Below, piece after piece: positions 20,664-33,923 of a stretch of DNA of 64,000 nucleotides. The notes under the pieces are model-generated. The model was not told the origin of the DNA. It was given only the letters and a program-made list of their open reading frames with translations, and did no database searches. A program made the position numbers and the translations under genes. Positions within the stretch are counted from its first letter, which is position 1, and every line of letters begins with the position of its first letter. The DNA is from Spirochaetia bacterium. GTDB taxonomy: Bacteria > Spirochaetota > Spirochaetia > UBA9216. The stretch lies in NCBI GenBank assembly GCA_963675665.1, contig OY776510.1, positions 4,960,001-5,024,000 of the forward strand. Direction: 5' to 3'.

Positions 20664-21431
20664 ATGAATAGCAAGAAAACAAATATGAAAGACCGTGTAG
20701 TTCTGATTACCGGTGCGGGGCGCGGAATAGGAAGGGCCTGTGCACTCACTTTTGCCGAAGCCGGCTGCGATATAGCACTTGGCTTGAGAGATCAAGAAAA
20801 TGCTCCCGACCTTGTTGAAGAAATAAAATCCAAAGGTGTCAGGGCCTTCCCCGTCCAGATGAATATCAGCCAAATGGATGAAATCTCTGCAGCGGTTGCT
20901 GAAGTAGTCAGCTATTTCGGACGAATTAATATCCTGGTGAACAACGCCGGAATAGGCGCTCCGAACCCTGCTGTTAAGGTAACTGAAAAAGATTTCGATG
21001 AAACAATTAATGTTAATCTGAAGGGAACATTTTTTACTTCCCAGGCTGTAGGGAAACAGATGATAAAACAAGGTACCGGCGGAAGTATAATTAATATGAG
21101 TTCTCAGGCCGGGTTTGTGGCTCTCGATACAGAATCCGTTTATTGCATGACCAAAGCTGGGATTTCACACCTTACCAAGTGTCTTGCGCTGGAATGGGCC
21201 CCTTATAATATCAGGGTCAATGCTGTAGCTCCGACCTTTATAAAAACACCGGGAACAGTAAAATGGCTGAAAAATGAAGAATTCCGCAAATCCGTACTTC
21301 AGCGAATTCCGCTTAACAGGACCGGGATCCCCGAAGATGTTGCCGATCCCGTGTTATTCCTTGCTTCAGACGAAGCTTCAATGATAACCGGTACGACACT
21401 TATGATAGACGGGGGATGGACGATTCAGTAG
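20664..21431 (+). CDS. Short-chain dehydrogenase/reductase
   Basis: TGAGRGIG, NNAG, YCMTK, IDGGW. Confidence 0.93.
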   Translation: MNSKKTNMKDRVVLITGAGRGIGRACALTFAEAGCDIALGLRDQENAPDLVEEIKSKGVRAFPVQMNISQMDEISAAVAEVVSYFGRINILVNNAGIGAPNPAVKVTEKDFDETINVNLKGTFFTSQAVGKQMIKQGTGGSIINMSSQAGFVALDTESVYCMTKAGISHLTKCLALEWAPYNIRVNAVAPTFIKTPGTVKWLKNEEFRKSVLQRIPLNRTGIPEDVADPVLFLASDEASMITGTTLMIDGGWTIQ

Positions 21432-21571
21432 GTAATATCGTTATAGCGACATTTATAACATTACCTGCGCTGGCTCCTTTTAGAAATTTAAATATTAAGG
21501 GAACCTCTGATATGATGTGACCCATGTCAAGTTAAAATATCCAGGTTTTATCTATAAGATCCCCCCCCTGT

Positions 21572-21770
21572 CCAGGACAGGAAGAAAGATAGAACAACGT
21601 TTATGCGGCGATAGACCACTCTGATATTCGCGGATTGGTTACCGCAGGTCAATGGGATCGTCGGGAGCTGCCTCTGTCTAAAACCGAGGATCAATATTAT
21701 TATTGCCTCATAGAGGTGCCGAGGGTTCTCCTTTATCACTGTTGTTGTTCTATCCATCCTTCTGTCCTGG
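21572..21770 (-). ncRNA. Putative bridge/seek RNA of the IS110-family element
   Basis: 27-nt closing stem (21744-21770 with 21572-21598) enclosing two hairpins whose flanks match the target (TCTAAAA, TAGAGGT) and the donor junction (TCTGATAT, CAAT). Confidence 0.75.
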
Positions 21771-21794
21771 TAGCTTATTAACCAACTATCGAAG

Positions 21795-22898
21795 TCATGC
21801 GACTTCTGTTCTACCTACCATCATTCCCCAAATAAATCCTGATAATTCTCTGGCAACTGCCGTAACAGTTTTCTGAGGGCATACCCCTCTACGAATCATC
21901 CTGAAATATTTCTTACTCAACCTTCTGCCGGCTTTATCAGCATAAGCTATTGTTTCAGCAGATTGTCCTTTCCTTCTCGCTGTCAGTCGTTTCGATGGCG
22001 AATACCTTTGGTAATGCCAGCTTGATTCCACTAACAGCCGTCGTAGCCTGGAGTTGCCGGCCTTCGTAATCCCGCCAAGCTTCCGGCCCTCTCCGCTTGA
22101 GTATTCTGACGGCACAAGTCCAAGATACGCCATGAAGGATTCCGCTTTTTTAAATCTTCTGAAATCTCCTATCTCGCATACAAATGTTAATGCTGTTAAT
22201 GTCTCTATACCTTTGAAACATCGAAGCCGGGATACCCTTTCTTTATATCTGTCTTCAGCAGCAATCTCTTCTATTTTTTCCTGCAACCGTTCAATCTTTT
22301 CCTCTAATTCCACAATCGCAAGATAATATTCTTTTAAAACTTCTTTATGCATTACCTGTTCAAACTGCAAGTTTTTCAACCAGGTTCGATGCGCCCCTGT
22401 CCAGTACTTTTTCCCAATATCATATTTCTTCCCGTTCCTTAGCAGAAACTGTAAGAGCCTCTGTTTCTGTTTCCTCAAATCAATTTTCATATCGTTACAC
22501 ATCCTCATGTAATCACGAACTGATTCATCTGTGCGTGTCGGTATATTCACCGGTGTTATTTCCTGATTCCTTAATGCTCTGGCTAATTTGACTGCATCCC
22601 TCTTGTCTGTCTTTATTCGGTCTCCGGGTTTCCTCGGCAATAATGATGGTGCTGCTACGTAACAGATAATTCCCATATCTTCAAGTAATCTATAAAGTGT
22701 AAATCCTGTAGGGCCTGCTTCGTAACAACACAGAATATTTTCTCCATTCTCTTTAAGTCGCTTGAAGAATCTTTTAATATTTCCGGGTTCGTTCCTGAGC
22801 TCTCTTTCAAACTCAGGATTCTGATAATTATCTCTGAATACCGCTACTGCGATTGATTCCTTGTGGACATCCATCCCTACATAAATTACACTATTCAT
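21795..22898 (-). CDS. IS110-family DEDD transposase/recombinase
   Basis: VGMDVHK, YEAGPTG, KTDKRDA (RuvC-like DEDD), YLGLVPSEYSSG with catalytic Ser; GGAGG RBS before ATG22898. Confidence 0.95.
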   Translation of the reverse strand: MNSVIYVGMDVHKESIAVAVFRDNYQNPEFERELRNEPGNIKRFFKRLKENGENILCCYEAGPTGFTLYRLLEDMGIICYVAAPSLLPRKPGDRIKTDKRDAVKLARALRNQEITPVNIPTRTDESVRDYMRMCNDMKIDLRKQKQRLLQFLLRNGKKYDIGKKYWTGAHRTWLKNLQFEQVMHKEVLKEYYLAIVELEEKIERLQEKIEEIAAEDRYKERVSRLRCFKGIETLTALTFVCEIGDFRRFKKAESFMAYLGLVPSEYSSGEGRKLGGITKAGNSRLRRLLVESSWHYQRYSPSKRLTARRKGQSAETIAYADKAGRRLSKKYFRMIRRGVCPQKTVTAVARELSGFIWGMMVGRTEVA

Positions 22899-23187
22899 AG
22901 TGGCCTCCGTTCCTTTGTATGTGGCGTGTCTGCGCTTTGCCATTAGCCATTGTGTAGGCTAATCCACGATTTTGCAAACACGGCGGTCACTTCATATTGT
23001 CTAATAATCCTAAATTGGGCTTATCAGAGTTTTGAAACACTCTGTGTTTCCGGGAGTTTATTTATTTCCTTATCAGTCAATAAATAAACATCCAATACAT
23101 CTAAGGAAGACTTCGAAAACTAAAGTTTTATAAAACTGCAGTTTTTAGAAGTCCCCTTAACTCAAACTATTAATATGCATCAGATTT

Positions 23188-24003
23188 TCATTCAAAAACA
23201 TAATGAATCCTTGATTTTATCTGATTGTACATTGACCCCGGCATGCCAATTGTCATATCCTCGGGATTAAATCCTCCCCACCCAACAGCACCAGGGTCAG
23301 ATAACATCACATTTGCTTTCCCATTCCTGTAAGGATATGCTGTTGTGGATAGACACATGCCCATTGCAGCTGTATGATTCAGACATATATAATTCATCAG
23401 TCTCTGCATCCACTTTCGTTTCATCGTTGATGTAACAAGTGCCAGCACAGGAACTGATTGTACAAATCCGGATGCAAAAACTTTATTGAATGCAAGTATA
23501 TTTTTTTGACGCTTATCATTTTTATCTGAATCCTTGTCTGCTGAGGTTCCCGGAATAAATCTGTCATTTATTGAAAAAGCAATTTGCCCAAGGAATTCAT
23601 CGTCAAGATTCTCAGGTCCGAGCGTGACAACAATATCTTCCATTACAGATTTTGGTACTGTTATGGAAACAACATCAGGGTTACAAATGTCTGTAATTAA
23701 TGGATGCCGGGTCATATTCATATCAGCATTAAAAATGAAAATAGCACGGTTCTTCTTCTCATATCTTATGGAAACCACACTATCAATATCGTTTTGAGGA
23801 TCACGCAATCCGAGCGCAACAAATCCCCATGCACACACTTTCAGAGATTCCTCGGTAATTAGAAGGCCTTCATTATATCTTCCTGCAAGCAATAGCCCGA
23901 GAGCTTCGCAATAGGAGCGAACTTCAGGTGTCGGCAAATCAGTTTTCGGTATTTCCTGATAAAATTTAATTCCTATCGGAATACGATTATGTTTTGTTTC
24001 CAC
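23188..24003 (-). CDS. DUF169-like protein
   Basis: PIGIKF, YCEA, CAWGFVALG, PDVV, MC, D...G..PEDM.IGMP pattern of DUF169. Confidence 0.6.
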   Translation of the reverse strand: METKHNRIPIGIKFYQEIPKTDLPTPEVRSYCEALGLLLAGRYNEGLLITEESLKVCAWGFVALGLRDPQNDIDSVVSIRYEKKNRAIFIFNADMNMTRHPLITDICNPDVVSITVPKSVMEDIVVTLGPENLDDEFLGQIAFSINDRFIPGTSADKDSDKNDKRQKNILAFNKVFASGFVQSVPVLALVTSTMKRKWMQRLMNYICLNHTAAMGMCLSTTAYPYRNGKANVMLSDPGAVGWGGFNPEDMTIGMPGSMYNQIKSRIHYVFE

Positions 24004-33754: not shown

Positions 33755-33903
33755 GGGAACCTCTAATAACCCTAAATTGGGCTTATTTGAGGTTTGAAAC
33801 ACTTTGTGTTTCCGGGAGTTTACTTATTTCCTTATCAGGAAATAAGTAAACATCCACTAAATCTAAGGTCGGCTTCTAAAAACTGCAGTTTTTAGAAGTC
33901 CCC
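33755..33903. mobile_element. MITE-like element copy B (intact, empty IS target)
   Basis: Imperfect 16-bp TIRs GGGAACCTCTAATAAC / GTTTTTAGAAGTCCCC (13/16); body aligns with 23003-23156; no ORF of its own. Confidence 0.85.
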
Positions 33904-33923
33904 TTATATCAATACTCACGGAA

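What the first reader, a model, noticed from the sequence alone, without database searches (positions are those of the whole stretch)
21572..21770. Readable bridge/seek RNA with target- and donor-matching loops in the IS right end
Seen: on the transposase (minus) strand, a 27-nt stem (23/27 Watson-Crick plus 2 G-U) encloses two hairpins. Hairpin 1 (GAGGCAAUA..UAUUG..CCUC) is flanked by ACCUCUA (plus 21711-21717) and UUUUAGA (plus 21677-21683). These match opposite strands of the target TT[A/T]TTAGAGGT: one mismatch to the site used here, and an exact match to TTTTAGA in the MITE's other TIR. Hairpin 2 (GCGG..CCGC) is flanked by AUUG (21650-21653) and AUAUCAGA (21620-21627), matching the reconstructed circle junction ATATC-AGA-CAAT. 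Known: IS110/IS1111 elements use such bispecific RNAs, encoded in the long right end in the IS1111 group. Inferred: a natural programmable recombinase with an AGA/TCT core and guides aimed at a host repeat. Caveat: CCUCU could instead pair with the nearby AGAGG as part of a stem.
Basis: partly seen in the sequence, partly recalled or inferred. Interest (0 to 1): 0.85.

Follow-up and report, generated by a model that had tools for sequence, protein, structure and literature searches.

The report
Bridge RNA of an IS1111-type element
The right end of a multi-copy insertion sequence encodes a folded guide RNA whose loops spell out both its insertion site and its own ends, an ordinary but very clear example of the RNA-guided recombinases described in 2024.

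Summary
Window 21507-23000 (minus strand) is a 1,494-bp IS1111-type insertion sequence. It is present in 7 near-identical copies, each with an intact IS110-family transposase gene.

Its long right end folds into the described structure at 21572-21770: a 25-pair outer stem enclosing two internal-loop/hairpin modules. [quoted passage not shown] In that set, 27 of 31 modelled pairs show compensatory changes.

Across 38 non-redundant relatives:
- The 5' side of loop 1 is complementary to the core plus right-flank positions +1 to +5 (74-97% agreement, about 25% for mismatched pairings).
- The 3' side repeats left-flank positions -1 to -4 plus the core.
- None of 20,000 permutations reaches the observed agreement.
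- The 3' side of loop 2 repeats the right-end tip plus core. Its 5' side pairs more weakly with the left-end tip.

Six of the 7 copies sit in a palindromic host repeat. No RNA data exist. This is a new member of a known kind, the bridge/seek RNAs of IS1111 elements.

The parts
21507..23000 (-). Whole insertion sequence: 1,492 bp plus one copy of the AG core (21508-21507). It reads ACAATATG...CATCATATC-AG.
   Evidence: Alignment of the 7 genome copies with flanks. All 7 are 1,494 bp with the same ends. Uninterrupted paralogous repeat copies give the empty site ..TTATTAG-AGGT...
21795..22943 (-). Transposase gene, 382-aa ORF. The likely true start is the ATG at 22898, giving 367 aa; it has GGAGG 7 nt upstream.
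   Evidence: Pfam PF01548 and PF02371. NCBIfam NF033542 'IS110 family RNA-guided transposase' scores 239.9 bits against a cut-off of 140. PDB hits to the IS621 and ISCro4 transposases. Relatives align from residue 12-21 onward.
21572..21770 (-). Bridge/seek RNA, long form: outer stem plus two loop modules.
   Evidence: Folds. The covariance-model hit covers the inner part, 21606-21731. The 199 nt are identical in all 7 copies.
21710..21720 (-). Loop 1, 5' side: GGCACCUCUAU. This is the right-target guide. CU (21713-21712) pairs with the AG core on the top strand, and CACCU (21718-21714) pairs with right flank +1..+5 (AGGTG).
   Evidence: Own-versus-other agreement at +1..+5 is 0.97/0.89/0.95/0.92/0.74 against about 0.25. 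In this genome +1..+4 match in 7 of 7 sites and +5 in 1 of 7.
21686..21709 (-). Hairpin 1, which caps loop 1.
   Evidence: Compensatory changes in 9 of its 10 modelled pairs, helices 3 and 4.
21675..21685 (-). Loop 1, 3' side: GGUUUUAGACA. This is the left-target guide. UUUU (21683-21680) has the same letters as left flank -4..-1, and AG (21679-21678) is the core. The following ACA equals the first 3 nt of the left end.
   Evidence: Own-versus-other agreement at -1..-4 is 0.92/0.89/0.68/0.45 against 0.59/0.25/0.25/0.25. In this genome -1 and -2 match in 7 of 7 sites, -3 in 4 of 7 and -4 in 3 of 7.
21648..21653 (-). Loop 2, 5' side: AUUGAC. It is complementary to the top strand G(core)-ACAAT of the left end, with one A-A mismatch.
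   Evidence: Left-end positions 3-5 agree 0.64-0.67 in own pairings against 0.35-0.47 in others. This is weaker evidence, and relatedness is a confounder.
21630..21645 (-). Hairpin 2 (GCGGUAACCAAUCCGC), which caps loop 2.
   Evidence: Helix 8 is 95.1% paired, and one pair switches C-G to U-A in 20 sequences.
21621..21627 (-). Loop 2, 3' side: AUAUC-AG. It has the same letters as the right-end tip plus core.
   Evidence: The right-end junction was located independently, through the loop-1 guide. On that basis 44 of 52 loci match at 5 or more of 6 positions. The variants CATAAC, CATACC and CATAAG covary with the guide.
22985..22997 (-). Left subterminal inverted repeat: ATATGAAGTGACC.
   Evidence: 12 of 13 positions are complementary to the right repeat.
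21510..21522 (-). Right subterminal inverted repeat: GGTCACATCATAT.
21525..21530 (-). TTGACA, the inferred -35 box of a promoter completed only when the ends are joined in a circle (TTGACA-17 nt-GACAAT).
   Evidence: 21 of 36 relatives have TTGACA at the same place, with CATAAT, GACAAT or CATTAT 17-18 nt on across the junction. No sigma-70-like site was found on this strand in the linear element. This is inference only.
23001..23156 (-). Host MITE-like repeat whose terminal palindrome carries the target. Its last 8 nt (AGGTTCCC) continue at 21506-21499.
   Evidence: Repeat copies elsewhere in the genome. Solo copies with an uninterrupted end. The reconstructed site folds as a hairpin, z -5.1.

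Best explanation
This is an active-looking IS1111-type insertion sequence whose right end encodes a bispecific guide RNA (bridge RNA / seekRNA).

The RNA is read from the transposase strand. It is most likely part of a transcript driven by a promoter that forms only when the excised element is circular.

Loop 1 holds the target. Its 5' side pairs with the top strand (AG core plus 5 nt to the right). Its 3' side pairs with the bottom strand (about 4 nt to the left plus the core).

Loop 2 holds the joined ends of the element. [quoted passage not shown]

The DEDD transposase then exchanges strands at the AG core. This inserts the circle into TTTT-AG-AGGTG-like sites, which in this genome lie mostly in the 3' arm of a palindromic repeat.

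Shown here: the conserved structure, the guide-flank and guide-end covariation, and the site specificity. Inferred from the family: the transcript, transposase binding, the circle and the strand exchange.
For: Protein family: Pfam PF01548 and PF02371, and NF033542 'IS110 family RNA-guided transposase' at 239.9 bits.

Copies: 7 copies of 1,494 bp with intact ORFs differing by 0-1 aa, and identical RNA.

Structure: reproduced in 7 relatives with 17 of 58 compensatory pairs. In 78 hits, 27 of 31 pairs covary; 89.7% of cells pair, against 34-44% when partners are slid. Conserved U-G pairs fix the strand as the transposase strand.

The RNA is found downstream of the transposase gene, on the same strand, in 78 of 88 sources. 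Seven of the 10 misses are contigs that end within 130 nt of the gene or inside it.

Guide-target covariation in 38 loci reaches 0 of 20,000 permutations on each of four measures.

Natural retargeting within this genome: the diverged copy at C1:4456572-4458048 has the same ends and nearly the same loop 2. Its loop 1 reads AAAAAGCU / CCGUAG, and its flanks read CCCGTAG | AG-CTTTTTT.

The 3' side of loop 2 equals the right-end tip in 44 of 52 independently located junctions.

The order of segments, top-strand complement 5' of bottom-strand complement, is the order reported for IS1111 seekRNAs (PMC11187229, abstract and section 9). Bridge RNAs were predicted in the right end of 93% of IS1111 elements (PMC11208160, passage in section 12).
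Against: There is no transcript evidence. No RNA run holds the sequence.

No promoter-like site was found on this strand in the integrated element. Expression therefore rests on an inferred junction promoter or on read-through.

The left-end guide (AUUGAC) is short, carries a mismatch, and covaries only modestly.

The single-sequence fold is only z -2.44.

The guides are not perfectly matched to the sites used. Position +5 matches in 1 of 7 sites and position -3 in 4 of 7.

The alignment used for the pair counts was fitted to the model, which favours the structure.

The junctions were located with the help of loop 2. This is independent of loop 1 but not of the RNA as a whole.
Confidence: 0.9

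Rival explanations
1. The structure is a conserved 3' untranslated element of the transposase mRNA, acting in stability, processing or termination, with no guide role. On this view the loop matches are coincidence.
For: It lies directly after the stop codon, and its stems are conserved. There is no independent promoter.
Against: It cannot explain why the loop letters track the flanking DNA of each relative at +1..+5 and -1..-4, with 0 of 20,000 permutations reaching the observed agreement. It also cannot explain why loop 2 tracks the right-end tip variants. No T-rich tail follows the stem.
Confidence: 0.04
2. The guide acts as single-stranded DNA rather than RNA. Folded subterminal DNA would pair with the target, as in IS200/IS605 elements.
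For: Sequence covariation alone cannot tell RNA from single-stranded DNA of the same strand. G-T pairs are also tolerated in DNA.
Against: The transposase is a DEDD IS110-family enzyme, not a HUH enzyme. For this family the RNA has been purified with the protein and shown to be required (PMC11187229, abstract; PMC11208160, passages read). The structure lies 65 nt or more inside the end, not at the cleavage site.
Confidence: 0.03
3. The region encodes the 69-aa ORF at 21548-21757(-), and the conservation is protein-coding.
For: The frame is open in this element and in the closest relatives.
Against: Only 29 of 78 relatives are stop-free in that frame. The hairpin segment lengths fall 42/23/13 over the three residues modulo 3. 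Changes are compensatory for pairing rather than synonymous.
Confidence: 0.01

Closest known systems
seekRNAs of IS1111-family elements (ISEc11, ISPa11, ISKpn4, ISPst6; Siddiquee et al. 2024, PMC11187229: abstract, sections 6, 9 and 13, and passages read)
   Same: The RNA is encoded in the long non-coding region downstream of the transposase gene. The segment complementary to the top strand lies 5' of the one complementary to the bottom strand, and the two overlap in the target. The elements have subterminal inverted repeats of 11-13 bp with 7-nt and 3-nt terminal extensions. Natural retargeting occurs by replacement of the target-matching letters between related elements.
   Different: The transposase is longer, at 367-382 aa against the 330-350 aa quoted for IS1111 transposases. 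The RNA described here is the long form (199 nt, with an outer 25-pair stem). Whether a short 80-100-nt form is produced is unknown. The target is different. No experiment was done.
IS621 bridge RNA (Durrant et al. 2024, PMC11208160, passages read; structures 8wt6 etc.)
   Same: There are two internal loops, one for the target and one for the donor. Each loop has one guide per DNA strand, and the guides overlap at a core dinucleotide. The core CT of IS621 is the complement of AG here. The pairing to one donor side is short. The -35 box lies in the right end.
   Different: The IS621 RNA is in the left end, upstream of the gene, with the left guide 5' of the right guide; here the location and the order are reversed. 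The protein match covers only the C-terminal domain (E = 2e-10, residues 210-305). The subterminal repeats here are long.
ISPpu9 / ISPpu10 of Pseudomonas putida, which insert in repetitive extragenic palindromes (PMC12288879, search-listing abstract only; bioRxiv 10.64898/2026.03.19.712850, abstract only)
   Same: These are multi-copy IS110-family elements aimed at a host palindromic repeat. An RNA gene lies downstream of the transposase gene (ISPpu9), and a stem-loop lies 5' of the insertion point (ISPpu10).
   Different: Here no solo copies of the RNA exist in the genome. A hairpin at the target is not a general trait of this clade: only 3 of 36 relatives' sites fold better than z -2.

Membership tests
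IS1111 group of the IS110 family | DEDD (RuvC-like) N-terminal domain plus the PF02371 C-terminal domain | tested here: met
   PF01548 at E = 2.7e-13 and PF02371 at E = 3.5e-22. NF033542 scores 239.9 bits against a cut-off of 140. The motif GLVPSEYSSG fits GL-P----SG as quoted in PMC11187229 section 6.
IS1111 group of the IS110 family | Subterminal inverted repeats, usually 11-13 bp, with asymmetric terminal extensions of 7 nt (left) and 3 nt (right) | tested here: met
   ATATGAAGTGACC pairs with GGTCACATCATAT at 12 of 13 positions. Counted from ATG/CAT, the extensions are AGACAAT (7, including the core) and ATC (3). The criteria come from the PMC11187229 introduction passage.
IS1111 group of the IS110 family | Long non-coding region downstream of the transposase gene and a short one upstream | tested here: met
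   There are 288 nt after the stop (21507-21794), against 57 nt (or 102 nt from the ATG at 22898) before the start.
IS1111 group of the IS110 family | Site-specific insertion without a duplication other than the core | tested here: met
   All 7 sites read ..TTAG | AG-AGGT... Uninterrupted paralogous repeats carry a single AG.
IS1111 group of the IS110 family | Transposase of 330-350 aa that falls in the IS1111 clade | tested here: inconclusive
   The length of 367-382 aa is outside the quoted range (PMC11187229 section 6). No tree with named IS1111 and IS110 transposases was built.
IS1111 group of the IS110 family | Circular intermediate with abutted ends and a junction promoter | not testable with these tools
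   Only the sequence potential is seen: TTGACA-17-GACAAT across the joined ends. Contigs of 4 DNA runs showed no end-to-end joint.
Bridge RNA / seekRNA | Conserved structured RNA gene in the long non-coding end, on the transposase strand | tested here: met
   The match count is 78 of 88 sources, and 27 of 31 pairs carry compensatory changes.
Bridge RNA / seekRNA | A target loop with one guide for each DNA strand, the two overlapping at the core and covarying with the target | tested here: met
   38 loci, 0 of 20,000 permutations; two IS species in one genome.
Bridge RNA / seekRNA | A donor loop with guides for the right-end and left-end tips | tested here: met
   Right end: 44 of 52 junctions match at 5 or more of 6 positions, with covarying variants. 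Left end: a 6-nt register with modest covariation.
Bridge RNA / seekRNA | The RNA is transcribed, binds the transposase and is required for transposition | not testable with these tools
   No RNA run holds the sequence.
Rfam families | A match to a curated covariance model | tested here: not met
   0 matches at E up to 10 over 21000-23600.

The most novel reading that the evidence does not exclude
This clade may show something beyond a routine bridge RNA. The second core letter may not need to agree between donor and target, or strand exchange may occur inside the dinucleotide.

In four relatives (L077, L081, L097, L078) the left junction reads TAG and the right junction reads C-AA. There, the 5' target guide carries UU at the core while the 3' target guide and the donor loop carry AG.

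In another subgroup (the diverged copy in this genome, plus L028, L029 and L071), the 5' guide is complementary to the last right-end base plus core. That is, it matches the product junction rather than the naive target.

Together with the 8-of-8 same-strand orientation of the copies in this genome, this could mean that the guides also read recombination products or intermediates, or a strand-specific state of the target.
Probability: 0.12. Interest if true: 0.55.

Novelty: new member of a known kind. Interest (0 to 1): 0.35.

Why it matters
The finding adds a well-resolved natural example of an RNA-guided recombinase. It gives a clade with hundreds of metagenomic relatives, a readable target code of about 4 + AG + 5 nt, and a natural pair of elements in one genome with the same ends but different targets.

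It also shows how much mismatch is tolerated in nature: positions +5 and -3/-4 are often unmatched at the sites actually used. The covariance model and the guide-flank table could be used to annotate such elements and to predict their targets.

It does not change the picture drawn in 2024 for IS1111 elements.

Tried and rejected
- Rfam: no match at E up to 10.
- RNA evidence: no RNA holder listed for the element.
- Contigs of 4 DNA runs (one study) laid on 21200-23300 showed neither an end-to-end (circle) joint nor an empty site. They showed only loose ends at the element's borders and about 10-fold depth over the element.
- Empty site in relatives: 20 related genomes searched with the locus gave no orthologous flanks, only relatives of the IS and copies of the repeat. 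Paralogous repeat copies were used instead.
- Earlier notes of this scan: nothing near this place.
- Is the target abundant? It is not: TTTTAGAGGT occurs 9 times, against 9.8 expected from length alone.
- Is a target hairpin a clade-wide requirement? Only 3 of 36 relatives' reconstructed sites fold with z below -2.
- Coding reading of the 69-aa ORF: rejected.
- The first automatic search for inverted repeats picked spurious repeats in about a third of loci. It was replaced by a search anchored on loop 2 plus fixed geometry.
- Three relatives with 900 nt or more downstream of the gene (L039, L063, L092) gave no model hit at E up to 1.
- L024, L054, L072, L087 and L088 show poor right-guide agreement, with runs of 0-2. 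In some of these the guide's core letters differ, so the register may be wrong.

Full report
**What is there**

On the minus strand, window 21795-22943 is a 382-aa ORF with the two domains of IS110-family transposases: PF01548 and PF02371. It also matches NCBIfam NF033542, 'IS110 family RNA-guided transposase', at 239.9 bits against a cut-off of 140. Its only solved relatives by sequence are the IS621 and ISCro4 transposases, and the match covers the C-terminal domain only.

The whole genome is one contig of 5.15 Mb. It holds 7 copies at 97-100% DNA identity and one diverged copy at 68-74%. Aligning the copies with their flanks fixes the ends. The element reads ACAATATGAAGTGACC ... GGGTCACATCATATC-AG, and the flanks read ..TT[A/T]TTAG before it and AGGT[T/G].. 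after it.

All 7 copies are 1,494 bp with an intact ORF differing by 0-1 residues. In window coordinates the element is 21507-23000.

It has subterminal inverted repeats (ATATGAAGTGACC / GGTCACATCATAT, 12 of 13 positions). It has 57-102 nt before the gene and 288 nt after it. That is the IS1111 layout described in PMC11187229 (introduction passage and section 6) and in PMC11208160 (section 12 passage).

**The observation**

The fold of 21509-21794(-) gives a 25-pair outer stem from 21770 to 21573. The stem encloses an 11+11-nt internal loop capped by hairpin 1, followed by a second loop module capped by hairpin 2. The free energy is -84.3 kcal/mol, z is -2.44, and 2 of 200 shuffles fold as well.

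Rfam has no matching family.

**Is the structure real?**

Relatives of the transposase were fetched: 6 loci from species genomes and 80 from metagenomes.

Seven close relatives align over the whole right end. Their consensus fold is the same structure, spans exactly 21572-21770 in the window, and has compensatory changes in 17 of 58 pairs.

A covariance model of the inner 126 nt was built with the loops left unpaired. It hits 78 of 88 sources, always on the transposase strand just downstream of the gene. Of the 10 misses, 7 are contigs that end within 130 nt of the gene or inside it, and 3 have sequence there but no hit.

On the 78 hits, 89.7% of cells pair, against 34-44% when partners are slid. 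27 of 31 pairs carry double changes, and no shuffle out of 500 reaches this. That alignment was fitted to the model, which favours it. Conserved U-G pairs show that the folded strand is the transposase strand.

In the own genome the model finds only the 8 copies inside the elements and no solo copies.

**Do the loops read the target?**

The diverged copy in this genome (C1:4456572-4458048) is the first test. It has the same ends and an almost identical loop 2, but the two sides of loop 1 differ. They read GUAAAAAGCUG and GUCCGUAGACA, against GGCACCUCUAU and GGUUUUAGACA in the window copy. Its flanks are ..GTCCCGTAG before it and AG-CTTTTTTAC after it. Both loop sides have changed together with the target.

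For a wider test I located the junctions without using loop 1. The right junction came from the 3' side of loop 2, allowing up to 2 mismatches. The left junction came from the inverted repeat plus a fixed 2-nt offset.

- Of the 78 hits, 62 gave a candidate junction.
- 39 of those had 12 or more of 17 repeat matches and enough flank.
- 38 were non-redundant.
- In 36 of the 38 the left flank ends in AG, although this was not imposed.

The reverse complement of the 5' loop side agrees with the locus's own right flank at positions +1 to +5 in 97, 89, 95, 92 and 74% of loci. From +6 on it agrees no more than mismatched pairings do, which run at about 25%.

The 3' loop side agrees with the locus's own left flank at -1 to -4 in 92, 89, 68 and 45% of loci. 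Mismatched pairings give 59, 25, 25 and 25%.

None of 20,000 permutations of guides among loci reaches the observed value on any of four measures.

Exceptions with poor right-side agreement are L024, L054, L072, L087 and L088.

The target code is therefore about 4 nt + AG + 5 nt.

**Do the loops read the element's own ends?**

Here I located the right junction through the loop-1 guide instead, which makes it independent of loop 2. A unique 6-mer hit was found in 52 of 78 loci. In 44 of those 52, the 6 nt before the core match the 3' side of loop 2 at 5 or 6 positions. The low scorers are register or spurious hits.

End variants are mirrored in the RNA: CATAAC with AAUAAC, CATACC with AAUACC, and CATAAG with AAUAAG.

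The 5' side of loop 2 is complementary to the core G plus the first 5 nt of the left end. In the window copy, AUUGAC lies opposite G-ACAAT with one A-A mismatch. Covariation is modest (own 0.64-0.67 against 0.35-0.47 at left-end positions 3-5) and is confounded by relatedness.

A short right-donor pairing is also reported for IS621, where 7 bp of the left donor and 2 bp of the right donor were varied (PMC11208160, section 10 passage).

**The core**

In the window copy the letter after AG is A on both sides, so AGA looked duplicated. In the diverged copy and in the relatives, the right flank after AG is any letter, while the left end begins with A in 34 of 36 loci. The core is therefore AG, the complement of the CT of IS621.

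**The target in this genome**

Six of the 7 copies lie in the 3' arm of a palindrome of the form AACCTCTAA[A/T]AA-CCC..GGG-TT[A/T]TTAG|AGGTT. Three of these palindromes form the end of a MITE-like repeat of about 160 bp. One copy, at 2.62 Mb, lies outside any palindrome.

Solo repeat copies carry the uninterrupted site with a single AG. One of them is inside the window near 33762-33912.

The guides do not fit the used sites perfectly:
- +1 to +4 match in 7 of 7 sites.
- +5 matches in 1 of 7.
- -1 and -2 match in 7 of 7.
- -3 matches in 4 of 7.
- -4 matches in 3 of 7.

The bare 10-mer TTTTAGAGGT is not over-represented, with 9 occurrences against 9.8 expected.

A hairpin at the target is strong here (z -5.1) but is not a clade trait: only 3 of 36 sites fall below z -2.

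**Expression**

No sigma-70-like site lies on the element's strand in its integrated form. TTGACA sits 16 nt from the right tip (21530-21525). Joined to the left end it would give TTGACA-17-GACAAT. In relatives, 21 of 36 have TTGACA there, with CATAAT, GACAAT or CATTAT across the junction.

This fits the junction promoter known for the family (PMC11187229, introduction passage) but is inference. No RNA run holds the sequence, so no transcript has been seen.

**Rivals**

A coding reading of the overlapping 69-aa ORF fails. Only 29 of 78 relatives are open in that frame, and the hairpin lengths show no multiple-of-three rule.

A plain 3' UTR element does not explain the guide-flank agreement.

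A DNA-level guide cannot be excluded from sequence alone. However, it does not fit a DEDD enzyme whose relatives have been shown to use RNA.

**Verdict**

Bridge RNAs in the right end of IS1111 elements were predicted for 93% of catalogued members (PMC11208160), and seekRNAs were shown experimentally for four (PMC11187229). This is therefore a new member of a known kind.

I read the abstracts and named sections or passages of these two papers, and only the abstract of the ISPpu10 preprint. No supplementary files were read. Their lists of predicted bridge RNAs might already include close relatives of this clade.

Noticed in passing
window 23001-23156 plus 21499-21506; solo copy at window ~33762-33912: A MITE-like repeat of about 160 bp with similar 15-nt ends (GGGGACTTCTAAAAA / TTATTAGAGGTTCCC). 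There are at least a dozen copies or fragments in this genome, and copies also occur in same-genus genomes G001, G004 and G005. The solo copy in the window keeps an unoccupied target.
   Followed up: partly
own genome C1: 0.55, 2.05, 2.62, 2.82, 3.73, 4.46, 4.98 and 5.03 Mb: All 7 copies and the diverged copy lie on the minus strand. Yet the cumulative GC skew has its minimum near 0.8 Mb and its maximum near 3.5 Mb, so the copies sit in both replichores. Eight of 8 in one orientation is unexplained and could be chance at about 1%.
   Followed up: partly
own genome C1:4456572-4458048 (locus L008): A second IS species with the same ends, 1,477 bp, single copy. Its transposase ORF is cut to 330 aa by a 10-nt deletion near the 3' end (69% identity to the window's). 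It has one change in the donor loop (AUAUCAG to AUACCAG). It is probably decaying.
   Followed up: partly
loci L077, L081, L097, L078: A subgroup in which the right junction reads ATC-AA-flank, not AG. The 5' target guide has UU at the core, while the 3' target guide and the donor loop keep AG. The left junction, seen for L077, L081 and L078, reads TAG|ACA. The second core letter is therefore discordant.
   Followed up: no
L008, L028, L029, L071: A subgroup whose 5' target guide ends in CUG. It is complementary to CAG, the last base of the right end plus the core. It therefore matches the right product junction over 9-10 nt in L008, L028 and L071, rather than the target's own -1 base. L029 has the CUG ending but matched over only 6 nt, and not at the junction.
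   Followed up: no
window 21548-21757 (-): A 69-aa ORF overlaps the RNA almost exactly. It is open in close relatives but not conserved as a frame across the family.
   Followed up: yes
window 22898 (-): The transposase probably starts at the second ATG, giving 367 aa. GGAGG lies 7 nt upstream and is conserved in relatives, whose alignments begin at residue 12-21.
   Followed up: partly
window 21531-21600: Contigs in 3 of 4 DNA runs join 21530 to 21601, skipping 70 nt of the right end between the RNA and the tip. This may be a variant copy or may come from a related element.
   Followed up: no
window 21572-21606 and 21731-21770: Relatives with about 40% transposase identity keep the inner 126 nt of the RNA, while the hairpin caps vary from a few nt to about 60 nt. 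The outer 25-pair stem was checked only in the 7 closest relatives.
   Followed up: partly
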